Positions 25,858 to 51,828 of a stretch of DNA of 64,000 nucleotides are shown here, piece by piece. The notes beneath the pieces are model-generated. The model was not told where the DNA came from. It did no database searches and was given only the letters and a program-made list of their open reading frames with translations. The translations under genes were made by a program, and so were the position numbers. Origin of the DNA: a bacterium (lineage in GTDB: Bacteria; 4484-113; JAFGCY01); the NCBI GenBank assembly GCA_020849855.1, contig JADZFO010000038.1:108010-172009 (forward strand). Direction: 5' to 3'. How positions within the stretch are numbered: position 1 is the first letter of the stretch; the number at the start of each line of letters is the position of its first letter.

Positions 25858-25993
25858 CGAAATGCCCCTTCGCCCAAGCGCAGCGGCAGATGAGCCGCAG
25901 CCTGTGTTCGGGCGAAGGGGAAGTATAACGCGGGCGGGCATAGGCTGCCTGGATCTTTACGGCGGCCCGCCCCGCTAAGGGAGCTGCCTGGGC

Positions 25994-26350
25994 CTAGAGC
26001 CCCAGGCTCTTTCGAGAAGCCTGCACAAGTCTCTCTATCAGCTCCTCCGGAAGAGGCTTGGCAGGACTGAAGGTGATCCCGGTCTTGGTGGCCTTGAAGC
26101 CGGCGGCGGCGATCTCTTCGCTAAGTGAAGCGATGGCTTCCGGGCTGAGATAGATGCCGCACTGCTTGCTGAAGGCCGCATAGCCAGCAATGGTCTTGCC
26201 GGAGATGGCGAAGCCCGGCATGTTGTAGGCAATGATCTCCTCGGCGTCAGGCAGAAGATGGCGAAGCCGGCCGCGCAGTTCGCTTAGCGCCTGCCGCAGC
26301 GGCTCCGCCGCCTGAGCGATGTAGTCATCATGAGAGTCAACTTTGTTCAT
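25994..26350 (-). CDS. DUF1801 (YdhG-like) domain protein
   Basis: 118 aa; central ...EEIIAYNMPGFAISGKTIAGYAAFSKQCGIYL.. matches the conserved YNMPGF / I.G..A.KxHxxL core of the DUF1801 family. Confidence 0.6.
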   Translation of the reverse strand: MNKVDSHDDYIAQAAEPLRQALSELRGRLRHLLPDAEEIIAYNMPGFAISGKTIAGYAAFSKQCGIYLSPEAIASLSEEIAAAGFKATKTGITFSPAKPLPEELIERLVQASRKSLGL

Positions 26351-26439
26351 GCCGGGGCGATGGTAGCACGCCCGGCCGCATGTCTCTGTCAGGAATCAGC
26401 GGCGCGCTAGGCAGGTTGCCTGTGCCCAGCACGGAGATT

Positions 26440-26560
26440 AAACCGACTGCCTGCCCTGCCAGGCGGCTCCACGAAGGCTGCCCCGCACTGCCATGCGGGG
26501 CCACGAAAGCTGCCCGCACTGCCAGGCGGGGCCACATGCCAGAGGGTTATACTCAGCGGG
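26440..26560. repeat. about 3 imperfect tandem ~31-bp repeats (GCCAkGCGGsbCCACGAArGCTGCCCsGCACT) in the upstream region of the large lipoprotein gene
   Basis: ctgccctgccaggcggctccacgaaggctgccccgcact / gccatgcggggccacgaaagctgcccgcact / gccaggcggggccacatgcc, read directly. Confidence 0.5.
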
Positions 26561-26585
26561 CCGGTGCATCCGGCCGGGGAGAGCC

Positions 26586-29500
26586 ATGCTGCTGCTGTCT
26601 GGAAAGCCTGCCTGCCGGCAGTTGAGGTTTACTGGAGTACTGCTGATCACCCTGCTTTGCGCCGCCTGCGGCGGGCGCGGAAGCATCCAGCCCGAGGCCA
26701 TGCTGACAGAAGGCGAAGTGCTGAATAGCCGCAGCGCCAGTGTGCGGATTCTTCCCGAGACCTATCTGGCCGGCGGCAGTGCACGGGCCATCACGCTGAG
26801 CGAGCGCGAGGAAGGCGATGCGGTGCTGCTGGAACTGCGGGCGCAGGATGCGCAGCAGCTCAAGGCCCTGTACCTGCACCTGGAGTATGACCCCGCGCAG
26901 CTTTCGCCGGCCGGCGTGGAGAGCGCCTGGGCCTTTGCCGCGGAGCAGGACAGCCTGCAGCTGCTGCTTGCCGGCGAGCCCGGCGTGCTGGAGTATGGCG
27001 AGCAGTGCATCCGGCCGCAGGTAGCGGACCAGAGCGCGGCGCGCGGAGGCCTCAGCGGCGATGGCCTGCTGGCGACGATCCGCCTGGCCCGGCGGCCCTT
27101 CAGCCCTCTGCAGCGCGAAGCGGCGGCGCCGACGATCGCTGACCGCAGCCAGTCGATACTAAGCCTTGATGTGGACAGCTTCACCCTGAGCTGGGGTTAT
27201 GCCAGCAACGGCGACTACAACCAGAACGGCACGGTGGCTGTAACCGACCTGACGCCCATCGGCGCGCATTTTGGCGAGGATGTGCCGGATGAGGACCAGA
27301 GCACCATTCAGTCGGTGATTGATGGCAATGGCGACGGCAAGATCGGGGTGGCTGACCTGACCGCGATCGGACTCAACTTCCAGATCAGCGTGAACAGCTA
27401 CAACATCTACGCCGCCAACAACATTGATGCAGTGCCAACCAGCAATGCCGGGCCGAACGGCGCAGGGGCCGAACTGCGCGGAACAGTTCCCTTTGACCAG
27501 GTCCAGGGCGACCAGTTCTCAGCCCGGCGCAGCTTCAGCTTCGCGCTGCCAGTCAGCCAGATTGGCTGGTTCTACTGGGTGCGGCCGAACGACGCGGAGG
27601 ATGGCACAGGCGCGGACGGCACGCCCAGCAGTGTGGCCAGCTTCGGCGGCAAGCCCGAGAACCTCGACCCCCTGGCTGTGTTGAGCGCGGATCCTACAAG
27701 CGGCGACATCCCTCTGGAGGTGAGCTTTGACGCCAGCGGCTCCAGCGACCCGGACGGTCTAGCCGCAGACATCAGCGACATCGTGCAGTTCCAGTGGGAC
27801 TTTGACGGCAACGGTTTGATTGACGACGTGAGCTCTGAGCCGACCATCAGCCATACCTACCGGCGCGGCGGGCTTAAGCAGGCCAGGGTGCGGGTCTTCG
27901 ACAGCGGCGCTGCTTCCTCCGAGGCCGCGGTCAGTATCCTGGCCGGCGCGGCTGGCAACGAAGTCCCGGTTGCGGTTCTCAACGCATCGCTCAGCAGCGG
28001 CCAGGTACCGCTGACTGTGTTGTTCAGCACTGCAGGATCGGGCAGCGGTGATGCGGTTTCGAATGTGATCCAGACCGAGTTTGACTTTGAGGGCGATGGC
28101 ATCTTCGATGTTGCATCCGGCTTCCTCAGAAGCGAAATCTCACATACCTTCACTGAGATTGGCACTTTCAACACGACGGTGAGAATCACGGACAGTTTCC
28201 AGCTGCAGGCCACTGCCAACATTGAGATTACGGTAACACCGAATGTGGGCAACCAGGCACCTTTGATTGTGATCCAGCCGGACCCGCTGGTGTTTGACCT
28301 CGTGGACCAAGACTTCCAGGTGGTCGAGATCGACGTCAGCGGATGCAGCGACCCGGATGGAACAGTGCAGCGCATCGAGCTCGATGTCAGGTCAGATGGC
28401 TTTCCAGAAGCGTTCTACCAGAATGACGGAATCCGTCCGCCGGACCGGCTCTTCGTGCAGGTGGTCCCAATGCTCTCGACTATCACGATTTCAGTGGTTG
28501 ACGAGCTTGGCACCCAGACTCAGGAAGTACGGGACTTCAGGGTGTCGAAGAATGGCAACTTCCCGCCCCAGCTGGCATTAAGCCAGAACATTGTCGCCGG
28601 GGACAAACCCCTGCAGGTTGATTTCGACGCTTCCGCCAGCACAGACATTGACGGCAGCATCGTCAACTTCCGCTTTGAATTCAATGACAGCAGCCCGGCG
28701 TTGGATGACCCCGACGGGGTGCTGAGCCACATCTTTGAGAGCGGTGGCGACTTCTTTGTAAGCATCACGGCTGTGGATGACGATGGCCTGGAGGCCTCGG
28801 TGAACCGAGCTATCGAAGTGAACGCACCGAATAACCAGCCGCCCCAGGCGGCCTTCAGCTTGAGCGTCAGCAGCGGGGATGCCCCCCTGACCGTAACTAT
28901 TGACCCTTCCGCCAGCAGCGACCCTGACGGGAGCATCAGCGAGCTGGCCTGGGATTTCTCGGGGGACGGCTTTTTTGCGCCGCTTGATGATCCCACAACG
29001 CTTGCCCCCTTCGAGCAGACCTTCGTGCAGGATGGCAGTCGGCAGATCAGCCTCAGAGTCACCGACAACGATGGCGGGCAGGACACCTTTTCACTTCCGC
29101 TCACAGTAAGCGGCGGCATCCAGCTGGGAGTTGCTGTAGAGGACTTCTCTCAGCAGCGCTCGGATGACGACACGCTTTCTGCAGCGGTTATCCCTGCCGG
29201 GAACTCCGGGCTGGACAAGGCCGCGATAGCCTTCGTGCCAAACAGGAACGTAAACGTTTTCCCCTTCAGCGCTTTCTACACGGAGTGCCAGCCGGCTGAT
29301 CCCCTGCAGTGGTCAACGCCCGCGCCGGTCTTTGAAATGATTGACGAGAACGGTGACGGCATCGCGCAGCTCGGCTTCGTGGCCCGCAACATCAAGCTGC
29401 TGGAGGTAGGCGGCAACCCCGCGCTGGCCTTCGACGGCAATGGCAAGCGCACAGATGAGCTGACCGCCCCCAGTGAAGACGGCGTGTTCTTTGTGCGGGC

Positions 29501-30386
29501 AGAAGACAACAGCGGCTCCCTGTGGGGTGACCCGGTCAAGATCCCGCTGCTGGACGGCGACCTGGAAGGTGAGTTCAACAACACCTTTGTCTTTGAGGAC
29601 ATTGCCGCGGCAAAGATCATCAGCGGCCGGCCGGCAATGGCTTACGCCTTTACGAGGGGCGACTTCCAGAGGCGAGCCGTGCGCTATGTGCGGGCGCTGG
29701 ACAGCCTTGGCAGCCAGTGGCCACCGCCAGTGGAAGTGGATTCAGTACCGGATAACTCGATATTCTTCACTGACCTGAACTTGGAGGTTTTTGACGGGGT
29801 ACCAAGCCTGCTTTTCGCCAGGAACACGAACTCAGGCAGCCCGGCAGTCGAGCAGCCCAGCTATTCGCGGGCTGTTGATTCTGAAGGCTCGGCCTGGAGC
29901 CTGCCTGAGTCTGTTGAGGACGGAGACATTAACTCTGTCAGATCGCGCGGTTCACTGCTGCTGCGCAGTTCCGGCGGCCTGCCGGCTGCCTTTTACAACC
30001 GTCCTGACGGCCAGTCGCAGGGCGAACTTGGCAGCAGCGTGAGCGGCGGCTTTAGCGGCCCGCCAACGGTGGTGCCCTTTGATTCCGGAAGCAGGATGCA
30101 GGTAATCGACCTCTTCGAGAGCGGCGGCGACAGCTATGCGCTGCTCTTCGGCTTCCGCAGCTCGGCGCTCAACGATGGCTTTGTGAGCTCGATCTTCCTG
30201 TCCAGGGCGCTGAGCGAAGATCTGAGCAGCTGGGGCAACCCTGTCGTGGTGGCCAATTCCGGCAGCCGGATGTCTGCGCTTTCAGCCGCGGTGCTGAAGC
30301 TTAACGGGGACCTGGTGATCATCTTCGCGGACTCTGACGCCGGTAATGTGAAGGTGGCCGTCCTGCCGGACTTTGTGGGTTTCTAA
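26586..30386 (+). CDS. large surface lipoprotein: cohesin-like N-terminal domain, dockerin-type double Ca-binding repeat, four PKD-like domains, C-terminal beta-propeller-like repeats
   Basis: Start at MLLLSGKPACRQLRFTGVLLITLLCAACGG (lipobox). LKALYLHLEYDPAQL resembles the cohesin FxxxYDPxxL strand. DYNQNGTVAVTDLTPIGAHFGE...DGNGDGKIGVADLTAIGLNF is a dockerin-like tandem of 12-residue EF-hand loops. PKD-like PLEVSFDASGSSDPDG, PLTVLFSTAGSGSGD, PLQVDFDASASTDIDGSI, PLTVTIDPSASSDPDGSI. ORF track 26493..30386. Confidence 0.65.
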   Translation: MLLLSGKPACRQLRFTGVLLITLLCAACGGRGSIQPEAMLTEGEVLNSRSASVRILPETYLAGGSARAITLSEREEGDAVLLELRAQDAQQLKALYLHLEYDPAQLSPAGVESAWAFAAEQDSLQLLLAGEPGVLEYGEQCIRPQVADQSAARGGLSGDGLLATIRLARRPFSPLQREAAAPTIADRSQSILSLDVDSFTLSWGYASNGDYNQNGTVAVTDLTPIGAHFGEDVPDEDQSTIQSVIDGNGDGKIGVADLTAIGLNFQISVNSYNIYAANNIDAVPTSNAGPNGAGAELRGTVPFDQVQGDQFSARRSFSFALPVSQIGWFYWVRPNDAEDGTGADGTPSSVASFGGKPENLDPLAVLSADPTSGDIPLEVSFDASGSSDPDGLAADISDIVQFQWDFDGNGLIDDVSSEPTISHTYRRGGLKQARVRVFDSGAASSEAAVSILAGAAGNEVPVAVLNASLSSGQVPLTVLFSTAGSGSGDAVSNVIQTEFDFEGDGIFDVASGFLRSEISHTFTEIGTFNTTVRITDSFQLQATANIEITVTPNVGNQAPLIVIQPDPLVFDLVDQDFQVVEIDVSGCSDPDGTVQRIELDVRSDGFPEAFYQNDGIRPPDRLFVQVVPMLSTITISVVDELGTQTQEVRDFRVSKNGNFPPQLALSQNIVAGDKPLQVDFDASASTDIDGSIVNFRFEFNDSSPALDDPDGVLSHIFESGGDFFVSITAVDDDGLEASVNRAIEVNAPNNQPPQAAFSLSVSSGDAPLTVTIDPSASSDPDGSISELAWDFSGDGFFAPLDDPTTLAPFEQTFVQDGSRQISLRVTDNDGGQDTFSLPLTVSGGIQLGVAVEDFSQQRSDDDTLSAAVIPAGNSGLDKAAIAFVPNRNVNVFPFSAFYTECQPADPLQWSTPAPVFEMIDENGDGIAQLGFVARNIKLLEVGGNPALAFDGNGKRTDELTAPSEDGVFFVRAEDNSGSLWGDPVKIPLLDGDLEGEFNNTFVFEDIAAAKIISGRPAMAYAFTRGDFQRRAVRYVRALDSLGSQWPPPVEVDSVPDNSIFFTDLNLEVFDGVPSLLFARNTNSGSPAVEQPSYSRAVDSEGSAWSLPESVEDGDINSVRSRGSLLLRSSGGLPAAFYNRPDGQSQGELGSSVSGGFSGPPTVVPFDSGSRMQVIDLFESGGDSYALLFGFRSSALNDGFVSSIFLSRALSEDLSSWGNPVVVANSGSRMSALSAAVLKLNGDLVIIFADSDAGNVKVAVLPDFVGF

Positions 30387-30435
30387 GGCCGGGCCCAGCC
30401 ACAGCGCCTGCTGCGACGGCCTGCCTTTACTTCGC

Positions 30436-31033: not shown

Positions 31034-31798
31034 ATGGCCACGGTGCTGCAAGCCTGCGCCCCCGAGAAGGCCGAGGAGATCCTCGCCTCGCTTGACCTGC
31101 AGGCGCTGCCCCGGCATGTGGCGATCATCATGGACGGCAACGGCCGCTGGGCCGAGGGCCGCGGGCTGTCGCGCTGCGAGGGCCACAGCGCCGGGGTGGA
31201 GGCGATCCGCCGCGCGGTGAACTCGGCCGACGACCTGGGTATCCGCTATCTGTCCATCTACAGCTTCAGCACCGAGAACTCCGAGCGGCCGGTGGAAGAG
31301 GTGGCTTACCTGTATGACCTCTTCACCCGCGTGCCGATGGCCGAGGCGCCCGAGCTGAACGCCAAGAACGTGCGCATGGTGGTCACGGGCCTGCTGGACT
31401 GGCTGCCCGAGGCGCCGGCGGCTAAGTTCCGCGAGGCGATTGAGCTGACTGCCGGCAACACCGGCCTGACCCTGAACATCTGCGTCATGTACGGCGGCCG
31501 CACGGAGATCCTTGACGCCGCGCGCTCGATGGCCGACGCAGCCATGCGCGGCGACTTCGACCTGACGCGCCTGACGGAGAACTCCTTCCGGCGCTTCCTG
31601 TACCACCCGGATATCCCCGACCCCGACATGGTGATCCGCACCTCCGGCGAGCAGCGTATCTCTAACTTCCTGCTCTGGCAGATCGCCTACAGCGAGCTGA
31701 TCTTCACCGAGGTGCTGTGGCCTGACTTCAGCAACGCTGACTTCCTGGCTGCGGTGCAGGAATATCAGGTGCGGCACCGCCGCTTTGGCAGGCTCTGA
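31034..31798 (+). CDS. uppS: ditrans,polycis-undecaprenyl-diphosphate synthase
   Basis: [13 protein letters not shown] catalytic motif; [11 protein letters not shown]; C-terminal RFGRL. Conserved frr-uppS-cdsA order. Confidence 0.9.
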
Positions 31799-32667
31799 TG
31801 CTGCAGCGCACCCTGACGGCGCTGCTGGGCGGGGCGCTATTCCTGTTTCTGTGCCTGCAGGGTTTCTGGTGGGCCCTGGGCGCGATGCTGCTGGCCAACC
31901 TGCTGGCGCAGATTGAGTACTTCCGCCTGATCCCCGGCCTCAGCCTGGCCCTGCGCCTGAGCTTCATCGGCCTGGGCGGCCTGCTGACGACGGCTACCGC
32001 GCTGGCCCTGATCAAGTGGACTTCCCTGCCGCTGCTGCCGGTGCTGCTCTTCATCATCTTTGGCGTCTGCTGCGCTGTGGCCCTGGCCGACTATGAGAAG
32101 GGCGGCGGGGGCGAGCGCGCCTGGCAGCTCTTGCGCGGCGCGCTGCTGATCAGCCTGCCGCTGGGCATCGCGGCGGCCATCGCCAGCTGGCCCGGGGACT
32201 ACCCCTATCTGCTGCTGCTGATCGGCGCTTCCTGGGGCGCGGACACGGGCAGCATCTGGGCCGGCAAGCTGGCGGGCAAAACACAGCTTTGCCGCGTCAG
32301 CCCCAAGAAGACTGTCGAGGGCCTGCTGGGCGGCGCGCTGGCCGCCGGGATGTGCTGGCTGGCCACGGCCGCCTTCTTCGGCCGCGAGCTGCAGTTCCTG
32401 GGCCACCGTCTGGACAGCCTGCGCATCGCCGCTGCGCCGGCGGATGGGCCCCTGGCGCTGCTCGGCCCGCTGGGCCTGATGTTCGTCTGCGGCGGCGTGG
32501 TCTCGCTGGCCGGGGTGCTGGGTGACCTGAGCTTCAGCCTGCTCAAGCGCCAGGCTGGGGTGAAGGACTATGGCGGCCTGCTGCCGGGACACGGCGGCAT
32601 CCTGGACCGCTTCGACAGCCTGATCTTCGTCGCCCCGCTGCTGTACCTTCTGCTGCTGGCGGTGTAA
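31798..32667 (+). CDS. cdsA: phosphatidate cytidylyltransferase
   Basis: 289 aa polytopic; [14 protein letters not shown] (SPxKTxEG CdsA signature) and C-terminal [10 protein letters not shown]. Confidence 0.85.
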
Positions 32668-32688
32668 AACTGCGCAGCCGGCGCGCCA

Positions 32689-32790
32689 GGGGTCTGAGTT
32701 TCACTTGCACATACAATGAAGCATGGATACAGGCCCGGCGCAGGGGACACATGAACAGGCCGCGCGCCAGCTTGAGCAGCTGCTGCTGGC
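32689..32790. repeat. direct repeat copy A (~100 bp, near-identical to 35569..35668), containing a truncated copy of the TPR-gene promoter and first 21 codons
   Basis: GAGTTTCACTTGCACATACAATGAAGCATGGATACAGGCCCGGCGCAGGGGACACATGAACAGGCCGCGC is identical at both sites. Copy A ORF MDTGPAQGTHEQAARQLEQLLLAV* terminates after 25 codons. Confidence 0.8.
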
Positions 32791-32805
32791 CGTGTGAAGC
32801 GGAGC

Positions 32806-35457
32806 TTATTGCGGCCTGAGCAGCACATTGTTCAATTCTTCGTCATAACCCGAGCTGAGGGGCAGGCCCGTGCCATCGATCAGACTCCAGAGCGAAAGCG
32901 GCTGCATGCACTCACTGACCCAGTCGTCACTCTCAGCCGGCTCCTCGACCAGGGCCGCGCAGTGGATGTTAACGCTGTTGTTGTAGTTATTGAGCCAAAT
33001 GCTGTACTGCACAACCAGCTTGCCGCCTACCAATGCTGTGGCATTCAGGCCAACGTCACCGCCAAGTGGCTTTGCAATCGTATAGTCTGCCCAGTCGCTG
33101 CTGTCGTCTGGCTCGGACTGCGCGGATTCCCAGTGAAACAGGTCAGCGTTGCTCTCGGCAATGAAGTGTGGATGACCATTAATGACATGCAGGGTATCGG
33201 TCACCCATTTCTCGCCTTCGACGGCCTGGGCCACCAGATGCTCCAGCCAATCGTCGCCGCTGTCTGGGTTACTCTGGACCGCGCGGATGTAGTGAAGCTC
33301 TTGCCCGCCGCCTGCAATGAAGGCTGGCCGCCCGGAAATGTCAACTATCGTTGTGTAGTCATCAAAGTAGAACGCCGCCGGCAGGCTCAGGGCGGTACTA
33401 AACTGCCAGTCCGATTGATCCTGCGGCTGAGAGCTGAGCGCGGCGGCGTAGCTAAGCGCGCCGGAGCCTGTCTGGTTATGCTTGAACATGAGTGCAGGAG
33501 TGCCGTTGACTACTGATAGCCGCAGTCCGCTGTAACTCTCACCTGGGGGCAGCGACTGAACTTCATGGCTTGTCCAGTCCTGCGGGCTGTCAGGCTGGGC
33601 TGAGCCGGCCAGCAACAGGTTGATGGAGTCCTGGGTCTGCCAGGCGATCGCGGGCCTGCCCTCATGCTCGGCGAGATAAAGCCAAGAACTGCCCAGGGCC
33701 ACATTGCCCGGATCGTGGGCCAGAGTGGTGATCCAGTCGTCCGGGCTGTCCGGCGTGGGCTCGACCGCCTGCACCAGGTAGATGGAATCGAAGGCTTCGC
33801 TCTTGCCCTCCATGGGGCCAACTGCCGCGAAAGCCGGGCGGCCGCCGACGGAGACCAGACGGGTGAAGGACAGATCATCGAGCATGTCAATCATTGTCCA
33901 ACGCGAGCGGTAACCAAGTTTCAGCGCGGTCGGCACGCTTTCATCAAGCCCTGCAGCCGACACTACATAGTAGTTGTGTGGCAGCAGATCCTGGGTTTGC
34001 AGGTCGGTGTAGTCGGCATCGCTGCTGACTCCAAGGAGAGTGTCATCGCTGCTATCACCACTGTCGATGTAGACTTTGTAGGCCACCGCGCCAGCTACAG
34101 GATTCCAGTTGAGCTCCACGCGGTCGGGGAGACCTTGTGAAACCTGCAGGCCGATTGGCGGGCTCAGCTCGCGGCGGCCGGTGTCCACCGGACTCCAGTG
34201 CGGGCTCGTGTCAGCGCCAAGCACGGCCCTGACCCGATACTCATAGCGGGTACGGTGCAGACTTTCCTTGCCCGGTGGAGAATTGAAGAAGTGGCTGAAT
34301 TTAGGCGAGGCATCGACGGTCTCGGCAAGCGGCACCCATAGCACCGGCTCACCACCATCGGCGTTTCGATACTCAATCTGATAGGCCTCGGCCTCTGGCA
34401 CAGCGGTCCAGACCAGGTCAATTCGGTCACCCAGCGTCGCAGGTTGCCATGGGTCGCTGTTGTCGTACTCGTCATAGGTGGCCGCAAGGAAGTCGACATC
34501 CCCGAGTGTTCGCAGACCGGCGACGCCAAATCCTGCCTCGCCGGTCAGCCCAACCCGCTGCAGGCGTAGACGGTAATAGACATTAACACCATAGGGCAGC
34601 AGGTTGGCCGCGCCGACTGCTTCCGAGTGCACATCGCTGTAGCTGTTCACGCCGGGCGGCAGGGTGGCCAGAGGCTCAAAGATGTAGGGCGGCTGCTGGG
34701 AGACGCTGCGCTCCAGTACGACGGCGTCGTACTGCAGGCCAGGATAACTGGCCGCCGGGTCATCCCAGCTCAGCTCAATGCGCCCGGGGTAGTCTCCGTA
34801 GCTCGCTGTCAGCCCCTGCGGGACCGGAAGCGCCGCATCCAGTTCCAGGCTGAGCCGCGAGACGCTGGCCTGCTGGGCGCCGTCGATCAGCACAATGCAG
34901 AACAGCGAGCCGTCAGGGCTGAGGGGCTCAAGCCCGGCAGCCAGGCTGAGCGTGTTTTCCGGCAGAGGCAGCGCCAGCCGGTACCAGCGCCAGCTCTGGC
35001 TGGCATAATCGCTGACAGCCAGCCAGGCCCTTTGCGGAAGTGGCTGGGCCAGCTCCAGCTTCAGGCTGAAGGTGGCGTCCTGCGGGCTGAGACCGCTGAA
35101 CTCGAACAAGGCCCAGCCAGGCTGGCCAGGGCTGGAGCTGAGCAGGGCAGTCTTACTGAAGGGGTTCACCATGGTGCTGGGGGCGGCTACGCTGAACTGC
35201 GATCCCGGCAGCACTATGGACCCCATGGCAAGCGCGGTGTGGGGCAGGCCGGAGCCGCCAGCTGGCAGCGCCGGAAGGCCGGACTGCTGCGGCAGGGCTG
35301 GAAGCTCAAGCCGCGGCGCGGCAGGGTCGACAAGTGGGGCCGCGGAATCAGTCGATGTTGTGACCGGCGCAGTCAAGGCGCCCGCGCCGCAGGATGACAG
35401 CATTAACGCGCAGAAGAGCAAAGCCAGACGCTGTGCGCCGTATCCCCACCTGACCAT
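32806..35457 (-). CDS. large surface lipoprotein (signal/lipobox, unknown conserved N-terminal module, FN3-like middle, beta-propeller-like C-terminal repeats)
   Basis: 883 aa; MVRWGYGAQRLALLFCALMLSSCGAGA lipobox. N-terminal module motif AWLAVSDYASQSWRWYRL is shared with the 43555..44997 and 58303..60210 proteins. Repeated P.DS.DDW / SxxDW blades in the C-terminal half. Gene is bracketed by the direct repeats. Confidence 0.55.
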   Translation of the reverse strand: MVRWGYGAQRLALLFCALMLSSCGAGALTAPVTTSTDSAAPLVDPAAPRLELPALPQQSGLPALPAGGSGLPHTALAMGSIVLPGSQFSVAAPSTMVNPFSKTALLSSSPGQPGWALFEFSGLSPQDATFSLKLELAQPLPQRAWLAVSDYASQSWRWYRLALPLPENTLSLAAGLEPLSPDGSLFCIVLIDGAQQASVSRLSLELDAALPVPQGLTASYGDYPGRIELSWDDPAASYPGLQYDAVVLERSVSQQPPYIFEPLATLPPGVNSYSDVHSEAVGAANLLPYGVNVYYRLRLQRVGLTGEAGFGVAGLRTLGDVDFLAATYDEYDNSDPWQPATLGDRIDLVWTAVPEAEAYQIEYRNADGGEPVLWVPLAETVDASPKFSHFFNSPPGKESLHRTRYEYRVRAVLGADTSPHWSPVDTGRRELSPPIGLQVSQGLPDRVELNWNPVAGAVAYKVYIDSGDSSDDTLLGVSSDADYTDLQTQDLLPHNYYVVSAAGLDESVPTALKLGYRSRWTMIDMLDDLSFTRLVSVGGRPAFAAVGPMEGKSEAFDSIYLVQAVEPTPDSPDDWITTLAHDPGNVALGSSWLYLAEHEGRPAIAWQTQDSINLLLAGSAQPDSPQDWTSHEVQSLPPGESYSGLRLSVVNGTPALMFKHNQTGSGALSYAAALSSQPQDQSDWQFSTALSLPAAFYFDDYTTIVDISGRPAFIAGGGQELHYIRAVQSNPDSGDDWLEHLVAQAVEGEKWVTDTLHVINGHPHFIAESNADLFHWESAQSEPDDSSDWADYTIAKPLGGDVGLNATALVGGKLVVQYSIWLNNYNNSVNIHCAALVEEPAESDDWVSECMQPLSLWSLIDGTGLPLSSGYDEELNNVLLRPQ

Positions 35458-35568
35458 TTCCTACCGTCCTGAATGCAGTTGCATCAAACAAGCTGCCCAA
35501 GCTTGCCCGCTCTCAGAACAGTTATACCCGCAAGCGCGTTCAGCGCGCCAGTCAGCGCCGGCGCGGCG

Positions 35569-35668
35569 GGGTTATGAGCTTCACTTGCACATACAATGAA
35601 GCATGGATACAGGCCCGGCGCAGGGGACACATGAACAGGCCGCGCAGCAGCTTGAGCAGCTGCTGGCC
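35569..35668. repeat. direct repeat copy B (intact promoter and 5' end of the TPR gene)
   Basis: See copy A. Contains TACAAT 5 nt upstream of the ATG at 35603. Confidence 0.8.
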
Positions 35669-36229
35669 GACGAGCAGCAGCGGCGCAGCCAGGGCCTGCA
35701 GCTTGACCCCGACCAGGTCCTGCGGCGCGGCAACCTGCTGGCCTTCCTTGGCCGCTTCGAGGATGCCCTGATGGCCTACAGCGAGGCCGCCGCCCTGCGC
35801 ACAGCGCTTGGCCTGGGGCCTGACCCCGACATTGAGATGAACCGCGGCAACTGCTATGACAGCATGGGCCGCAGCGCCGACGCCGCGGCCTGCTATACCC
35901 GCGCCGAGCAGCAGCAGGCCATCGGCCCGCCGGACTGGCGCCTGGCGGCCAACCGCGGCTCCAGCCACTACGGGGCGCGGCGCTTCATGGAGGCCCGGCG
36001 CGAGTTTGAGCTGGCCCAGAGCATCCGCGCGCAGCAGGGCCAGCAGCCCGATCCGGAGCTGTGCATCTTTCAGGCCATCGTGGACATGGAACTGGGCGAC
36101 AAGGCCGCCGCCTGCCGCCATGCCCGCCTGGCCCGCGACATCTACAGCGCCTCACAGCCCGCCGGCGAGCTGATCGAGGTGCCGCAGGTACTGGTGGCCC
36201 TGCTGCAGGAATGCAGCGATAAGTTCTAA
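35603..36229 (+). CDS. TPR-repeat protein
   Basis: 208 aa; three or four 34-residue helical repeats with small/large residue periodicity (e.g. GNLLAFLGRFEDALMAYSEAAAL, RGNCYDSMGRSADAAACYTRAE, RGSSHYGARRFMEARREFELAQ). Confidence 0.55.
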   Translation: MDTGPAQGTHEQAAQQLEQLLADEQQRRSQGLQLDPDQVLRRGNLLAFLGRFEDALMAYSEAAALRTALGLGPDPDIEMNRGNCYDSMGRSADAAACYTRAEQQQAIGPPDWRLAANRGSSHYGARRFMEARREFELAQSIRAQQGQQPDPELCIFQAIVDMELGDKAAACRHARLARDIYSASQPAGELIEVPQVLVALLQECSDKF

Positions 36230-36277
36230 GCCCGCAGCCCTGCGGCCGCAGCCAGACGCACTCTGCCCTGCCGGGAG

Positions 36278-38047
36278 CTAATGCGCCTGAACATGCGCAT
36301 GCTCTTCTTCCTGCGCGTGCTCGTCTTCGTGCCCATGCTCTTCTTCATGCCCATGCTCGTCTTCATGCTCGTGCCCATGCCCATGAGCGTGATCATGCTC
36401 GTGCTCTTCCTCGCTGTGGCCCGGCACCTCAAAGCTGGCGTCACCGGCGGGATGGTGGTGGCCGCCGATGCTCCAGTCGATGCCCAGCCAGAGGCTGCCA
36501 ACCCTGCGGCCCAGGTGCTGGGCGTCGTCGTGGTTGTACTGCAGGCGCACCCGCGTCGCCTCGCTGGGGTACCAGGCCAGCAGCGGGCTGATGCGGCTGC
36601 GCTCGTCGCGCAGGGGGTCGTGCTCGCTGCCGCCCACGCTTTCGCCGCTGCTGCCGGCAAACTCATAGCGCAGGCCGGCGGCCCACTGCGGGCGGAAGCC
36701 GTAGAGCAGCTGGCTGTAGGCCGCGCTGTCACGCAGGCTCAGAGCCGGCAGGTCTATCGGGTTTGCCAGGTCGCTGTCATCCTGCAGGGCCGCAGCATCA
36801 TAGCTGCGCAGGGCGTACTCGCTTTCCCAGAGCACAAAGGGCCATTCGCCCGGACAGGGCTGGTAGAGATAGCTCAGGTCCGCGCCATAGATGCTGGTTC
36901 GGCTGCCGGCACCGCTGCCATTGGGCCCCCACATGCCAGACAGGCCCAGGCGCCAGCGCGAGCTCTCCGACTGCCAGGTGTTCTCCCAGCGCAGTGTGGC
37001 GAGCAGGGCGGCTGAATCGTCCAGCTGCGGGCGCAGGCCCGGGCCGAGGCTTTCATAGCGCTCTTCCAGCAGCAGCAGCAGCGGGTCTTCCTCCTCTTCC
37101 TCCCCGCCGTGCTCCTCTTCCTCGCCATGGCTGTGGCCGGCGCCGCGGAAGCTGACCATGCTCTCGTCGGCGGCATTCTGCACACCGATGACCAGGCGGC
37201 TTTGCCAGTCTTCGTCCTCGTCCCAGTCCTCGCCGCTGTTCTTGTTCCAGGCCAGGGCCACACCACCGGCGCGGCCGCCTTCGGAGCCGAAGAAGCGGCT
37301 GACCAGCAGCTGCTGGTCCATCCAGCTCCAGCTGTGCGGGTGGCGCGCATTGTGCAGGCCGAAATCTGTATAGAACTGGCCGGCCTTCAGCTCGAAGCCG
37401 CGCCCGAGCTGGCTGAGCAGGTAGGCCTCCTCCAGCTCGGCGCCTTCCTCCCCAAAGCTGATGTTCAGCTGGCCGCGGGCGCGCGCTGTGACCCAGCCGC
37501 CGAGGCTGAGCTCGGCAATCGGCGTGCTGAAACCCTGGGCGCGCGGGTCATGGTGGCCGGCCTGCAGAGCTTCCAGCTCGGCGTCCTCCGCATCGCTGAA
37601 GCCCAGGTAGGACATCACGTTCAGGCCCAGCTCCAGCGGCAGGTCGTGGAAGTGCTCATGCCATGTGGCCGGCGGCTCGCAGTGCGTGGCCTCTGCCTGC
37701 TGCGGTGCCAGGGCGACCTCGACGCTGTCGCCGGCATGCGCCTCATGCGCCGCATGCCCTTCATGCCCGGCACCTTCAGCATGCTCATGCTCAGCATGTC
37801 CTGCTTGCTCTGCATGCCCGGCATTCTCGGCATGGGCCTGACCCGCTTCATGCTGGTGCCCGGCCTCATGCTCATCCTCAGCCGCAGCCGCGGTGAAGAG
37901 AGCGCTGCCCGGTACCACGCCCAGGGTCAGAACTAGGATCAGGCCCAGGAGCAGGCACAGCAGTCCATAGGCCCTGCTTGCCTTGACAAGGCCCGGAAAA
38001 CTACGCGGCTGGCAGCGCGGGCGAAAGGTGATGCACGGATTGCTCAT
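36278..38047 (-). CDS. His-rich metal-binding protein, probable outer-membrane/porin-like, predicted Zur/Fur-regulated
   Basis: 589 aa; signal peptide; N-terminal (HEAGHQHEAGQAHAENAGHAEQAGHAEHEHAEGAGHEGHAAHEAH) and C-terminal (HSEEEHEHDHAHGHGHEHEDEHGHEEEHGHEDEH) His/Glu-rich blocks. Middle region has alternating-polarity beta-strand-like stretches. Start codon abuts a Fur-box palindrome. Divergent from a Fur-family gene. Confidence 0.5.
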   Translation of the reverse strand: MSNPCITFRPRCQPRSFPGLVKASRAYGLLCLLLGLILVLTLGVVPGSALFTAAAAEDEHEAGHQHEAGQAHAENAGHAEQAGHAEHEHAEGAGHEGHAAHEAHAGDSVEVALAPQQAEATHCEPPATWHEHFHDLPLELGLNVMSYLGFSDAEDAELEALQAGHHDPRAQGFSTPIAELSLGGWVTARARGQLNISFGEEGAELEEAYLLSQLGRGFELKAGQFYTDFGLHNARHPHSWSWMDQQLLVSRFFGSEGGRAGGVALAWNKNSGEDWDEDEDWQSRLVIGVQNAADESMVSFRGAGHSHGEEEEHGGEEEEEDPLLLLLEERYESLGPGLRPQLDDSAALLATLRWENTWQSESSRWRLGLSGMWGPNGSGAGSRTSIYGADLSYLYQPCPGEWPFVLWESEYALRSYDAAALQDDSDLANPIDLPALSLRDSAAYSQLLYGFRPQWAAGLRYEFAGSSGESVGGSEHDPLRDERSRISPLLAWYPSEATRVRLQYNHDDAQHLGRRVGSLWLGIDWSIGGHHHPAGDASFEVPGHSEEEHEHDHAHGHGHEHEDEHGHEEEHGHEDEHAQEEEHAHVQAH

Positions 38048-38077
38048 GATAATGATAATAGCTTCTCATTATCATGA
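38044..38077. promoter_or_regulatory. Fur/Zur-box-like operator: perfect 12-bp inverted repeat TCATGATAATGA-N10-TCATTATCATGA (contains GATAATGATAAT)
   Basis: AT-rich palindrome in GC-rich DNA, at the 5' end of the His-rich protein gene and 250 bp upstream of the fur-family gene. Matches the classic Fur-box GATAATGATAATCATTATC. Confidence 0.6.
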
Positions 38078-38331
38078 TCGTCAAGCGATCTTAAGCGTGC
38101 AGACATATCAAACTGTTTGAGACAAAGGAACCTGCCGGCAGCGTCTTCAGGGCGTCTCACGGGCAGCACTGACACGGAACGGATCCTGCAGGGCCGCTGC
38201 CCTGCGGGTCCTTTTTTGAATTCATCCAGCACAGTAGAGACTGCAATCATGCTGGCGGCCCTGACCTGCTGGCTTAGTAAGCGGCTCTGCTGTCTGCAAG
38301 CCGCGCGGCGCAGCCCCGGTATAATCGGCCT

Positions 38332-38712
38332 GTGATGCAGCGCAACACCCGCCAGCGCGAGGTGATCCGCCGCGCCTTCGAGCGCGCGGCGCGGCCCCTG
38401 TCGCCGCAGCAGCTTCTGGCCCTGGCGCAGCAGGAGATGCCCAGCCTGGGCCTGGCGACGGTCTACCGCAGCCTCAAGGCCCTGAGCGAGGAAGGCTGGC
38501 TCACCACCGTGGAGCTGCCCGGCTCGATCCAGCACTATGAGATCGCCGGCCAGGCGCACCACCACCACTTCCACTGCCGGGCCTGCGACGGCGTGTTCGA
38601 GGTCCATGGCTGCCCGCCGCGGATCGACCAGCTCACCCCGCGGGGCTTCAAGCTGGAACAGCATGAGATCGTGCTCTACGGCCTCTGCGCCGACTGCAGC
38701 CGGGCCGCCTGA
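38332..38712 (+). CDS. zur: Fur-family metalloregulator (Zur-like)
   Basis: 126 aa; DNA-binding helix region LATVYRSLKAL (TVYRTL motif); metal sites HHHHFHC..CG and C-terminal C..C. TATAAT at 38320-38325 lies 6 nt upstream of the GTG at 38332 (9 nt from the in-frame ATG at 38335). Confidence 0.8.
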   Translation: MMQRNTRQREVIRRAFERAARPLSPQQLLALAQQEMPSLGLATVYRSLKALSEEGWLTTVELPGSIQHYEIAGQAHHHHFHCRACDGVFEVHGCPPRIDQLTPRGFKLEQHEIVLYGLCADCSRAA

Positions 38713-39870: not shown

Positions 39871-39976
39871 CAGGCGCGCCAAAGCACCTGTCATGCGTGT
39901 AGTTTTCCCCGCTTAGCCGCCGCCCGGCGGAAATTTTCCAGGCTTTTCGTTACCGCTGCACTGGTAAACTGTCTGC

Positions 39977-50308: not shown

Positions 50309-50956
50309 TCAGACCGGTCGCAGGCGCAGACCCGGCTGCATCTCGCGCATCAGCAGGTACATATCCAGCGCGCAATAGCGCTGTAACGTTTCCGGTGTGC
50401 CCCGCAAGCTGTGGCACAGCCGCGGAAGATCCGGTTCATTCCCGCGCAGAAGGCTGATCATCGCCAGTGCGTTGTCCTTCTCCCAGACGAACTCGTGCTC
50501 ATCCGAGGCGGCGATCCGCTCGGTGCTGGCGATCAGCAGCCGCAGGTCGCCAAGGAAATAGGCGAGGCTGGCGGCGCGCACCGCGGCAATCATGCCATGA
50601 CGCAATTGAAAGTCGAAGTACTGCTTCAGGCAGCGCGGATCGTCCAGCCGTGCTGCAACCATAATGTAGTCAAGGCAGAAGGCGTCCCAGCCGACAAGGC
50701 TTGAGCCGCCTGAAACCTGAATGCGTCCGGCGAACCGGGCGAGGTTGTCAAGGGGTCGGCGGTCGAAGGTGCGGCTGCAGGTATAGGCGGCCACGTAGGC
50801 CGTCTGCAGCGGCCAGCGCTCATCCCCGAAATCGCTGTGGGCGGACAGTTCGCAGAACCTGTTCATCGCAGTGAGCGACGACAGGAACAGCCTTGATTCT
50901 ACAAACCTGCTGTAAAGCACTCTCCCCCACCTCGCTGTAACAGCCTTGCCAGCCAC
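50309..50956 (-). CDS. uncharacterized ~220-aa all-alpha-type protein, paralog 3 of a tandem triplet
   Basis: 215 aa; shares with 51104..51778 and 51829..52497 the blocks Y(V/I)(E/D)S..F(L/I)SS...M..F, ERWP(L/I)..AY.AAYTCSRTFD, Y.MVAARLDDP..L..YF, AAVR.ASLAY.LG. No known catalytic motif recognised. Confidence 0.45.
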   Translation of the reverse strand: MAGKAVTARWGRVLYSRFVESRLFLSSLTAMNRFCELSAHSDFGDERWPLQTAYVAAYTCSRTFDRRPLDNLARFAGRIQVSGGSSLVGWDAFCLDYIMVAARLDDPRCLKQYFDFQLRHGMIAAVRAASLAYFLGDLRLLIASTERIAASDEHEFVWEKDNALAMISLLRGNEPDLPRLCHSLRGTPETLQRYCALDMYLLMREMQPGLRLRPV

Positions 50957-51103
50957 CAGATACTAACGAACAAATCAGATATGCGCTGGAGTTTGGCCCC
51001 AAGTTTGCACGGAGCGCACCAGCGCTGATGCAGGCAATAAGAAAGAGTGCGGATAAATGCACTATGCCGGACAAGCAGGGAATTGACTGACGGTCAGCTT
51101 GCG

Positions 51104-51778: not shown

Positions 51779-51828
51779 GCAAGTGTTCGCCGCCTGTAAC
51801 AGCGAATTCGCTTAGCAGCCAGGAGTGC

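What the first reader, a model, noticed from the sequence alone, without database searches (positions are those of the whole stretch)
32689..35668. ~100-bp near-identical direct repeats (32689..32790 and 35569..35668) bracket the 883-aa lipoprotein gene; the upstream copy is a truncated duplicate of the TPR-gene promoter plus first 21 codons
About 70 bp are identical and the rest nearly so. Copy B is the genuine 5' end (TACAAT + ATG) of the TPR gene. Copy A, immediately after cdsA, encodes MDTGPAQGTHEQAARQLEQLLLAV-stop. This architecture is what one expects if the lipoprotein gene was inserted as a cassette with duplication of the target, or if it can be excised or inverted by recombination between the repeats (which would restore cdsA-TPR adjacency).
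Basis: seen in the sequence. Interest (0 to 1): 0.55.

Follow-up and report, generated by a model that had tools for sequence, protein, structure and literature searches.

The report
Recombination scar flanking a surface-lipoprotein gene
A 109-bp copy of the start of a neighbouring TPR gene lies on the far side of a surface-lipoprotein gene; it is a real scar of the recombination event that placed that gene in a small, fast-changing island between cdsA and fur, which is an ordinary kind of genome plasticity and not a new mobile element.

Summary
Window 32677-32785 and 35557-35665 are direct repeats: 109 nt, 7 mismatches, a 66-nt identical core, spaced 2880 bp. They bracket the minus-strand 883-aa lipoprotein gene. 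Copy B is the true TACAAT box plus 5' end of the TPR gene. Copy A is a truncated duplicate that ends in an 18-mer matching the last 18 nt of cdsA (16/18).

The closest genome (cdsA 87% identical) has no TPR gene. At the same place it carries two divergent paralogues of the lipoprotein (35-42% identical). Each is followed by a near-identical fragment of the cdsA 3' end (156 nt and 87 nt). A more distant relative has cdsA directly next to fur.

So cdsA-fur is a small hypervariable island of compositionally atypical surface-protein genes. Its cassettes are separated by partial copies of flanking gene ends. No integrase, transposase, inverted repeats or attC-like sites occur within about 17 kb on either side.

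The best reading is a scar of homologous plus microhomology-mediated recombination: either single-crossover (Campbell-type) insertion of a circularised segment, or a tandem duplication. RecA could delete the gene across the 66-nt core.

This is a new member of a known kind, of modest interest. No population data were available to show excision.

The parts
31798..32667 (+). cdsA (phosphatidate cytidylyltransferase), last gene of the frr-uppS-cdsA block. Its stop codon is the exact left edge of the variable island.
   Evidence: Pfam PF01148, 1.9e-43. blastn synteny with the sister genome ends at 32666.
32650..32667 (+). Terminal 18-mer of cdsA, CTGCTGCTGGCGGTGTAA.
   Evidence: The pattern search finds it only here and at 32780-32797; expected by chance 0.03.
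32677..32792 (+). Repeat copy A: truncated duplicate of the TPR upstream region, TACAAT (32712-32717), ATG (32723) and 21 codons.
32723..32797 (+). 24-codon remnant ORF (MDTGPAQGTHEQAARQLEQLLLAV*), a TPR head fused to a cdsA-type tail.
32780..32797 (+). cdsA-tail-like 18-mer CTGCTGCTGGCCGTGTGA at the end of copy A. This is the novel junction, overlapping the TPR sequence in CTGCTGGC(C) (8-11 nt of microhomology). It lies 8 nt from the lipoprotein stop codon.
   Evidence: 16/18 to the cdsA tail. In the sister genome the cdsA fragments sit 16 and 6 nt from the lipoprotein stops.
32806..35457 (-). 883-aa predicted surface lipoprotein: signal peptide with LSSC lipobox, fn3 domains, C-terminal all-beta propeller-like repeats with SxDW motifs. 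It is the cargo between the repeats.
   Evidence: Pfam fn3. Alignment with the two paralogues. AlphaFold model and Foldseek hits to fn3 arrays and ROS1/Sevenless ectodomains (low overall confidence). GC3 0.73.
35435..35530 (-). Conserved 5' end, 5' UTR and -10-like box (GGGTATAAC on the minus strand) of the lipoprotein gene. It is 83.5% identical to the upstream region of lipo878 in the sister genome. Conservation stops at GTTATACCCG in both.
   Evidence: blastn; sequences.
35557..35669 (+). Repeat copy B: genuine upstream region, TACAAT (35592-35597) and 5' end of the TPR gene.
35603..36229 (+). 208-aa TPR protein gene. Native-like composition (GC3 0.88). No homologue found other than itself.
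36278..38047 (-). 589-aa His/Glu-rich protein gene. Part of the island and absent from the sister genome.
   Evidence: No family hit.
38332..38712 (+). fur. Synteny with the sister genome resumes at 38314, just upstream of its GGTATAAT box, which is the right edge of the island.
   Evidence: Pfam PF01475, 3.3e-21; blastn.

Best explanation
The repeat pair is a scar of general recombination, not site-specific recombination, inside a small hypervariable island bounded by the cdsA stop codon and the fur promoter.

Proposed steps:
1. A 2.88-kb segment running from the last ~18 nt of cdsA, through the convergent lipoprotein gene and its promoter, to codon 21 of the TPR gene was joined head to tail at an 8-11-nt G-rich microhomology (CTGCTGGC). 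The product was either a circle or a tandem-duplication junction.
2. Homologous recombination in the TPR head then placed it in a chromosome. The result is: cdsA / TPR-head::cdsA-tail (copy A) / lipoprotein gene / complete TPR gene (copy B).

Copy A is therefore a pseudo-5' end that encodes no useful protein. It still carries an intact -10 box and start codon, and it points into the 3' end of the lipoprotein gene. The 66-nt identical core is a substrate for RecA-dependent deletion of the lipoprotein gene, which would leave cdsA next to an intact TPR gene.

Shown: the repeat anatomy, the hybrid junction, the parallel cdsA-fragment scars in the sister genome, the island boundaries, and the absence of recombinase genes nearby. 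Inferred: the order of events, a circular or tandem intermediate, a donor from another strain, and the capacity for deletion.
For: (1) Geometry. The direct repeats flank the cargo, the downstream copy is the complete gene, and the upstream copy is truncated at a novel junction.

(2) The junction. Copy A ends in CTGCTGCTGGCCGTGTGA, which matches the cdsA terminal 18-mer at 16/18. This is the only other occurrence in the window (expected 0.03). The lipoprotein stop lies 8 nt beyond it. In the sister genome the lipoprotein stops lie 16 and 6 nt beyond cdsA-type stops.

(3) An independent parallel. L001 reads cdsA / two foreign small ORFs / 156-nt cdsA 3' fragment / lipo878 / 87-nt cdsA 3' fragment / lipo860 / fur. 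This is what two successive single-crossover insertions at the cdsA tail would give. The fragments are 157/163 and 87/89 identical to that genome's own cdsA, while the adjacent lipoproteins are only 35% identical to each other. Five of 7 differing codons are synonymous, so the fragments came from functional cdsA alleles and are not decayed pseudogenes. Two other read sets give contigs that break 30 nt into the 87-nt fragment, so the repeat is real there.

(4) Island status. Synteny stops exactly at the cdsA stop and resumes at the fur -10 box. The outgroup has cdsA-fur 60 nt apart. Core genes are 87-92% identical between the two genomes, against 41% for the lipoproteins. Island genes have low GC3 (0.55-0.73 against 0.88-0.95).

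(5) Mismatch pattern. In the window repeat, 5 mismatches fall in the 23 nt upstream of the -10 box, none in the 66 nt covering the -10 box, start and codons 1-14, and 2 in codon 15. This fits two alleles that diverged while both were functional better than decay after an in-genome copy.

(6) No recombinase. No integrase or transposase Pfam hit occurs in window 15.7-52.5 kb or in the L001 cargo ORFs. There are no terminal inverted repeats.

(7) Literature. Microhomology junctions of 4-15 bp, G-rich, are the documented signature of duplication junctions in E. coli (PMC1428787). Islands for exposed structures are exchanged by homologous recombination in flanking core genes (PMC4033161).
Against: No genome or read data show the insert-free (cdsA-TPR) allele, a circle or a deletion product. 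The TPR gene is known only from this genome.

The cdsA-tail remnant in the window is short. Beyond the CTG-rich part shared with TPR only about 6 nt are diagnostic, and the search pattern was designed after seeing both copies.

A Campbell insertion needs a recipient lacking the lipoprotein gene. The sister genome suggests the common ancestor had a lipoprotein gene here, so at least two steps are needed under any model.

The synonymous/non-synonymous argument rests on 7 codons.

A trans-acting recombinase encoded outside the 64-kb window cannot be excluded.
Confidence: 0.55

Rival explanations
1. A purely intragenomic history. A microhomology-mediated tandem duplication of [cdsA tail - lipoprotein gene - TPR head] produced two lipoprotein copies. 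The cdsA-proximal copy was later deleted, leaving only the junction (copy A).
For: The TPR-head::cdsA-tail hybrid is exactly the novel junction a tandem duplication of this segment would create. Junction microhomology is typical of such events (PMC1428787). The sister genome has two tandem lipoprotein genes, and a remote relative has a tandem pair.
Against: It needs a second, nearly precise deletion from just after the cdsA stop to the TPR upstream region. The left 23-30 nt of copy A differ from copy B at about 25% of positions while the next 66 nt are identical, which is unexpected for a recent in-genome copy. In L001 the cdsA fragments are 96-98% identical to cdsA, but the flanked lipoproteins are 35% identical. 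Simple duplication and divergence fails there unless gene conversion is invoked.
Confidence: 0.2
2. Site-specific integration. The lipoprotein gene (and the L001 cassettes) would be integrase-less cis-mobilisable cassettes inserted by a tyrosine or serine recombinase encoded elsewhere. The element would supply a replacement gene end, as prophage e14 does at icd.
For: Partial copies of a housekeeping gene's 3' end at the far side of inserted DNA, differing mostly at synonymous sites, closely resemble icd/icdC around e14 (PMC13626634). Tandem arrays separated by att-like repeats are known for accreted elements (own knowledge).
Against: No recombinase gene lies within about 17 kb on either side of the repeats in the window or in the L001 cargo. 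The repeat lengths differ (156, 87 and 109 nt). Two unrelated sequences are duplicated (cdsA tail in L001, TPR head here) for the same cassette family, so there is no common att core. Other members of the lipoprotein family sit at other loci without any flanking repeats.
Confidence: 0.07
3. A selected, functional arrangement. The repeats would form an on-to-off deletion switch for a surface antigen, and/or copy A's intact promoter would drive antisense transcription into the lipoprotein gene to modulate it.
For: The -10 box, the ATG and the first 14 codons of copy A are 100% conserved while the adjacent upstream sequence is not. Copy A points into the 3' end of the convergent lipoprotein gene. 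The lipoproteins are hypervariable, as expected for targets of phage or predator recognition (PMC4033161).
Against: There is no conservation test, because only one genome has this repeat. No sigma-70-type promoter is called by the consensus scan. There is no significant RNA structure (z = -1.0) and no Rfam match. Deletion would be irreversible without an external donor. The conservation pattern is equally explained by a recent event between two alleles.
Confidence: 0.1
4. An assembly artefact: a chimeric join of two strain haplotypes, or a false duplication in a metagenome-assembled contig.
For: The window comes from a MAG (the proteins are named '[bacterium]' with IT575 locus tags). No reads are available to check.
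Against: The copies differ at 7 positions and are internal to a 224-kb contig. The hybrid junction shares only about 10 nt with either parent, far below assembler k-mer sizes. The 66-nt identical core is shorter than typical reads. An independently assembled relative shows the same class of structure, supported by two further read sets.
Confidence: 0.05

Closest known systems
Campbell-type (single-crossover homologous) insertion of circular DNA; duplication-insertion structures
   Same: The insert is flanked by direct repeats equal to the homology segment. One copy is complete and the other is truncated at the circle's closing junction. The structure can resolve by homologous recombination between the repeats. 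No dedicated recombinase is needed.
   Different: This would be a natural event with a 109-nt homology. The intermediate was not observed. The closing junction uses 8-11 nt of microhomology. The insert-free recipient allele is hypothetical.
Prophage e14 (and phage 21) at icd, with the icdC 3' pseudogene fragment in E. coli K-12 (PMC13626634 and Hill et al. 1989 cited there)
   Same: A partial copy of a housekeeping gene's 3' end lies at the far side of the inserted DNA and differs mainly at synonymous sites. The target gene stays intact, and loss of the insert fuses the two copies. The L001 cdsA fragments (156 and 87 nt) look just like this.
   Different: e14 is a 15-kb prophage with its own integrase and a fixed att core. 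Here the cargo is 1.4-2.9 kb with no recombinase. The fragment lengths vary. In the window the duplicated piece is the 5' end and promoter of a different gene (TPR).
Microhomology-mediated tandem duplication or amplification junctions (Slack et al. 2006, PMC1428787)
   Same: The novel junction forms at a short G-rich direct microhomology. The documented range is 4-15 bp, and here it is CTGCTGGC (8-11 nt). The repeats are direct.
   Different: Only one copy of the cargo gene is present now, so a later deletion would be required.
Replacement/additive flexible genomic islands encoding exposed structures (Lopez-Perez et al. 2014, PMC4033161)
   Same: The island lies between conserved syntenic core genes and its boundaries fall at the gene ends. 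Its contents are highly divergent (35-42% aa) while the core is 87-92% identical. The products are surface-exposed and the composition is atypical.
   Different: It is very small (5.6-7.2 kb, 2-4 genes). It contains internal partial copies of flanking gene ends, which those islands are not described as having.
Integron gene-cassette arrays
   Same: Single-gene cassettes are stacked next to a fixed chromosomal point and separated by a recurring sequence.
   Different: There is no IntI and no attC-type imperfect palindromes. The recurring sequence is a fragment of the neighbouring housekeeping gene. The cassettes carry their own -10 box and 5' UTR.

Membership tests
Campbell-type / homologous single-crossover insertion (or tandem-duplication) scar | Direct repeats in the same orientation flank the insert, and each repeat equals a segment of a gene adjoining the insert | tested here: met
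   32677-32785 and 35557-35665 are direct and 94% identical. Copy B is the real TPR 5' end.
Campbell-type / homologous single-crossover insertion (or tandem-duplication) scar | One repeat copy ends at a novel (closing) junction that joins two sequences normally apart, typically at microhomology | tested here: met
   Copy A ends in a cdsA-tail 18-mer (16/18), the only other occurrence in the window (expected 0.03). It overlaps TPR in CTGCTGGC. The remnant is short, so the support is moderate.
Campbell-type / homologous single-crossover insertion (or tandem-duplication) scar | Existence of the insert-free allele, the circular form or the deletion product | not testable with these tools
   No reads are available. 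TPR has no homologue. Metagenome scans were empty.
Site-specific integrative element (e14/icd-like island, or cis-mobilisable element) | Integrase or recombinase gene in or beside the element | tested here: not met
   Pfam scans of window ORFs across 15.7-52.5 kb and of the L001 cargo ORFs found no recombinase or transposase family.
Site-specific integrative element (e14/icd-like island, or cis-mobilisable element) | A common att core of fixed extent shared by all junctions | tested here: not met
   The duplicated pieces are 156 and 87 nt of the cdsA tail in L001 and 109 nt of the TPR head in the window. They share no sequence apart from the last 18 nt of cdsA.
Site-specific integrative element (e14/icd-like island, or cis-mobilisable element) | The target gene remains intact because a replacement end is supplied | tested here: met
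   cdsA and TPR are both full-length. In L001 cdsA is full-length and the fragments lie downstream.
Transposon / insertion sequence with target-site duplication | Transposase, terminal inverted repeats and a short (2-15 bp) target duplication | tested here: not met
   There is no transposase. No inverted repeats occur at the cargo ends. The duplication is 109 bp.
Integron cassette array | An IntI integrase with attI, and attC recombination sites (imperfect palindromes) at cassette ends | tested here: not met
   No integrase was found. The copy A region folds no better than shuffles (z = -1.0). There is no Rfam match. The repeats are gene fragments.
Flexible genomic island for exposed cell structures | A fixed position between conserved syntenic core genes, with different gene content in related genomes | tested here: met
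   Synteny breaks exactly at the cdsA stop and resumes at the fur -10 box. The interval is 5.6 kb here, 7.2 kb in L001 and 60 nt in the outgroup.
Flexible genomic island for exposed cell structures | Encodes surface-exposed, rapidly diverging products, often of atypical composition | tested here: met
   The product has a lipobox, fn3 domains and a propeller-like region. It is 35-42% identical to its paralogues against 87-92% for neighbouring genes. GC3 is 0.55-0.73 against 0.88-0.95. Surface exposure is inferred, not shown.

The most novel reading that the evidence does not exclude
The cdsA-fur interval of this little-sampled lineage would be an integrase-independent cassette-stacking locus. 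Surface-lipoprotein cassettes (from the -10 box to the stop codon) would travel between strains as small circles or fragments. Each would carry a piece of whichever core gene end lay next to it. These portable homology anchors would let RecA capture, stack and shed cassettes reversibly. The result would be population-level antigenic shuffling. The retained intact promoter of copy A would add antisense control of the captured gene.
Probability: 0.1. Interest if true: 0.6.

Novelty: new member of a known kind. Interest (0 to 1): 0.3.

Why it matters
The locus is a clean natural example of single genes being added to a bacterial chromosome without a mobile-element recombinase. The traces left are partial copies of flanking gene ends and a microhomology junction. 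Two sister genomes record independent events at the same small island, one using the cdsA tail and the other the TPR head.

For annotation, the 24-codon ORF and the 50-aa 'CTP_transf_1' fragment in the relative should be treated as recombination scars, not genes.

For biology, it marks the 883-aa lipoprotein family as a hypervariable, probably surface-exposed target. It also predicts that lipoprotein-minus variants arise by deletion across a 66-nt repeat. The mechanism class is well known, so the finding does not open a new question.

Tried and rejected
1. Exact-protein look-ups of the window's TPR, cdsA and lipoprotein found nothing on record.
2. A metagenome scan with a cdsA alignment and a second scan with the 34-nt repeat core both found nothing. 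No strain variants could therefore be examined.
3. A viral-contig scan with the lipoprotein alignment found nothing.
5. The word-index search suggested the lipoprotein family had only three members. The exhaustive profile search corrected this. It found many remote full-length relatives of about 850-940 aa and thousands of fn3 hits.
6. I looked for flanking partial-gene repeats at two other loci carrying family members and found none. I therefore rejected the idea that the repeats are an intrinsic part of the cassette.
7. The sigma-70 consensus scan called no promoter in 32500-36400, and its terminator hits were at chance level.
8. Rfam gave only one chance-level hit.
9. The RNA fold of the copy A region was not better than shuffles. 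I rejected a structured RNA or terminator role.
10. PADLOC and NCBIfam gave nothing for the island proteins. I rejected a known defence system.
11. The AlphaFold model of the lipoprotein from a 3-sequence alignment was poor overall (pLDDT 55.7). I used it only for the domain class.
12. A one-step templated-insertion model (copying 109 nt from downstream during break repair) was considered and set aside. It does not explain the duplicated cdsA 18-mer or the unrelated 12-nt spacer after the cdsA stop.


Full report
**1. The observation**

The sequence and the repeat finder (whole window) show one pair of direct repeats, 32677-32785 and 35557-35665. They are 109 nt long, 94% identical and spaced 2880 bp apart. 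A base-by-base comparison gives identical blocks of 9, 66 (32700-32765) and 18 nt, with seven mismatches. Five mismatches lie in the 23 nt upstream of the TACAAT box. Two lie in codon 15 (CGC against CAG). With a 3-nt indel the match runs to 32792/35669. Apart from a local 30-nt tandem array near 3.6-5.4 kb, it is the only long dispersed repeat in the window.

The repeats bracket ORF 32806-35457 on the minus strand, 883 aa. Copy B carries TACAAT (35592-35597) and the first possible start of the 208-aa TPR ORF (ATG 35603; Pfam TPR_1). Copy A carries the same box and ATG (32723). It encodes MDTGPAQGTHEQAARQLEQLLLAV-stop, against MDTGPAQGTHEQAAQQLEQLLADEQ... for the gene.

**2.

Copy A does not simply stop. 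Its last 18 nt (32780-32797, CTGCTGCTGGCCGTGTGA) match the last 18 nt of cdsA (32650-32667, CTGCTGCTGGCGGTGTAA) at 16 of 18 positions. A degenerate pattern fitting both occurs nowhere else in the window, with 0.03 matches expected by chance. I designed that pattern after seeing both copies, and much of it is CTG-rich, so on its own this is moderate evidence.

The TPR sequence (CAGCTGCTGGCCGAC) and the cdsA tail overlap in CTGCTGGC. Copy A is therefore a hybrid, TPR head::cdsA tail, joined at 8-11 nt of microhomology. The stop codon of the lipoprotein gene lies 8 nt beyond the hybrid's stop.

**3. Gene content**

Upstream lie frr, uppS and cdsA (Pfam). Between the repeats lies the 883-aa protein. 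It has a signal peptide with an LSSC lipobox whose Cys is invariant in all homologues. It also has fn3 domains and a C-terminal all-beta region of regular four-strand units with SxDW motifs. The AlphaFold model is poor overall (pLDDT 55.7) but reaches 65-91 over residues ~530-800. Foldseek returns fn3 arrays and fn3-plus-propeller ectodomains.

Downstream lie the TPR gene, a convergent 589-aa His/Glu-rich ORF with no family match, and fur (38332-38712). Pfam scans of the plausible ORFs from 15.7 to 52.5 kb found only housekeeping families. No integrase, transposase or other recombinase was found.

**4. Relatives**

The window's proteins are annotated at NCBI as hypothetical proteins of an unclassified 'bacterium' on a 224-kb contig. 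The TPR protein has no detectable homologue but itself.

One close genome exists, a MAG labelled uncultured Planctomycetales (locus L001). Its frr, uppS and cdsA are 88, 92.5 and 87% identical at the protein level. Nucleotide synteny between the two genomes ends exactly at the cdsA stop codon (window 32666, L001 10869). It resumes just upstream of the fur GGTATAAT box (window 38314, L001 18110).

Between these points the window has 5.6 kb: copy A, lipoprotein, TPR and the 589-aa ORF. L001 has 7.2 kb, in this order:
- two small ORFs with no family match and GC3 0.55;
- a 156-nt fragment of the cdsA 3' end;
- an 878-aa paralogue of the lipoprotein;
- an 87-nt fragment of the cdsA 3' end;
- an 860-aa paralogue.

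A more distant relative (cdsA 56% identical) has frr-uppS-cdsA followed directly by fur, 60 nt away. Still more distant ones have unrelated genes after cdsA. The cdsA-fur interval is thus an insertion hotspot in this small clade. The lipoprotein family is resident there in both sister genomes. TPR and the 589-aa ORF are specific to the window's lineage.

**5. The parallel scars in L001**

Both cdsA fragments end exactly at a cdsA-type stop codon and lie 16 and 6 nt from the stop of the following convergent lipoprotein gene. That is the same arrangement as the 18-mer in the window. The fragments are 157/163 and 87/89 identical to L001's own cdsA. The lipoproteins they separate are only 35% identical to each other and 41-42% identical to the window's.

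Five of the seven codons that differ between the fragments and cdsA are synonymous changes. One of the two replacements (F to Y) restores the residue found in the window's cdsA. The fragments therefore derive from functional cdsA alleles rather than from long-decayed copies.

Two other read sets (Logan assemblies of SRR14271333 and SRR14271334) give contigs that carry the 860-aa gene. These contigs break 30 nt into the 87-nt fragment, as expected at a true repeat.

The upstream region of the window's lipoprotein gene (35435-35530) is 83.5% identical to that of the 878-aa paralogue. In both genomes the conservation stops at GTTATACCCG, the complement of a GGGTATAAC -10-like box. The N-terminal half of the window protein is closest to the 878-aa paralogue (60-65%). 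Its middle is closest to the 860-aa one (45-54% against 29-38%). The C-terminal region is 20-30% identical to both. This pattern suggests mosaicism or very uneven rates.

**6. Composition**

Core genes have GC3 of 0.88-0.95 and TPR has 0.88. The 589-aa ORF has 0.80, the window lipoprotein 0.73, the L001 paralogues 0.66-0.68, and the L001 small ORFs 0.55. The cargo genes are atypical, whereas the TPR gene looks native.

**7. The wider family**

The word-index search found only the three proteins. An exhaustive profile search found many remote full-length relatives of about 850-940 aa (E 1e-50 to 1e-150), besides thousands of fn3 hits. One relative sits in a tandem pair convergent with gpsA in another organism. 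Another is a third paralogue elsewhere in the L001 genome. Neither locus has flanking partial-gene repeats. The cdsA-tail motif occurs only in the cdsA island. The repeats are therefore a property of events at this island, not of the cassette.

**8. Mechanism**

The structure cdsA / TPR-head::cdsA-tail / lipoprotein / complete TPR is what results when two steps occur. First, a segment running from the cdsA tail to TPR codon 21 is closed head to tail at a microhomology. Second, it recombines with a chromosome through the TPR head. The L001 structure is what two such events through the cdsA tail would give.

The closing junction could arise as a circle, followed by Campbell-type insertion. It could also arise as a tandem duplication, followed by loss of the proximal copy. 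I favour an event between two different alleles for three reasons:
- The mismatches between the copies avoid the 66 nt that hold the -10 box, the start and codons 1-14. They crowd into the 23 nt upstream.
- The 12 nt after the cdsA stop match nothing nearby.
- In L001, near-identical cdsA fragments flank very divergent paralogues.

None of this is proof. Either route requires at least two steps, because the common ancestor probably already had a lipoprotein gene here. G-rich microhomologies of 4-15 bp are the documented signature of duplication junctions in E. coli (PMC1428787). Exchange of surface-structure islands by homologous recombination in flanking core genes is documented in aquatic bacteria (PMC4033161).

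The 66-nt identical core should support RecA-dependent deletion of the 2880-bp unit. This follows from general knowledge of minimal homology lengths and was not tested here. The deletion would leave cdsA 55 nt upstream of an intact TPR gene.

**9. Rivals**

A site-specific element acting in trans is attractive because the L001 fragments look like icdC beside prophage e14 (PMC13626634). Three observations argue against it. There is no recombinase nearby. The fragment lengths differ. Two unrelated sequences are duplicated for the same cassette family.

A selected function remains possible but untestable with one genome. It would be either a deletion switch or an antisense promoter, since copy A keeps its -10 box and ATG and points into the lipoprotein gene. 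The consensus promoter scan, Rfam and folding gave nothing.

An assembly artefact is unlikely. The copies differ at seven positions. The hybrid junction shares only about 10 nt with either parent. An independent assembly with two further read sets shows the same class of structure.

**10. Comparison and verdict**

The finding works like a Campbell-type or duplication scar inside a small flexible genomic island for a surface protein. It fails the defining tests for transposons, integrons and integrase-bearing islands. It is a new member of a known kind.

Its interest is modest (0.3). It is a tidy double example of recombinase-free gene addition, and it is useful for annotation: the 24-codon ORF here and the 50-aa cdsA fragment in the relative are scars, not genes. 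It also flags a hypervariable surface protein. It does not challenge current understanding.

The most novel reading not excluded is an anchor-carrying cassette-shuffling locus that is used reversibly. I give that about 10%.

Noticed in passing
window 3612-3830 and 5294-5400; L001 18076-18103: Tandem 30-nt hairpin units (GGCGGGTCAAGACCCGCC-CCTACAGAATCA) occur at these window positions. A related hairpin, GGGCCGAGACAAGCTCGGCCCCTACAA (3798-3825), is 28/28 identical to a site in the sister genome. That site lies right at the fur-side edge of the sister genome's island. This looks like a REP-like element family shared by both genomes.
   Followed up: partly
window 38048-38080: A Fur-box-like inverted repeat, GATAATGATAAT-N8-ATTATCATGATC, abuts the start codon of the 589-aa His/Glu-rich ORF. 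It lies 250 nt from fur, which suggests a Fur-regulated metal-related envelope protein.
   Followed up: no
window 36276-36413 and 37735-37870: The 589-aa ORF contains 18-nt and 9-nt periodic coding repeats giving His/Glu-rich runs at both ends of the protein. It has no Pfam, NCBIfam or PADLOC match and is absent from the sister genome.
   Followed up: partly
window 25931-30427: This is a second variable region. The 1297-aa PKD-domain protein between metG/DUF1801 and frr has no counterpart in the sister genome, which has about 6.2 kb of different sequence there. It also has lowered GC3 (0.76).
   Followed up: no
window 39873-39948 vs L001 19736-20623: The sister genome has an extra 249-aa PG_binding_1 gene between the macro-domain gene and the sigma-70 gene. 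The window lacks it.
   Followed up: no
window 35592-35605, 38318-38334, 35521-35530: Three genes at the island (TPR, fur, lipoprotein) each keep a conserved -10-like box (TACAAT, GGTATAAT, GGGTATAAC) with no recognisable -35 box. The TPR ATG lies only 5 nt after its box, which suggests a leaderless mRNA.
   Followed up: no
window 50309-52497: Three tandem minus-strand ORFs (215, 224 and 222 aa) have no Pfam match and share a 59-nt, 81% identical repeat between the first two. They are probably a small paralogous family.
   Followed up: no
L001 10989-12191: Two small ORFs (151 aa, Cys-rich and secreted-looking; 245 aa) have strongly foreign composition (GC3 0.55) and no family match. They are flanked by the cdsA 3' end and its 156-nt copy, making a clearer 'foreign insert between gene-end repeats' than the case in the window.
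   Followed up: partly
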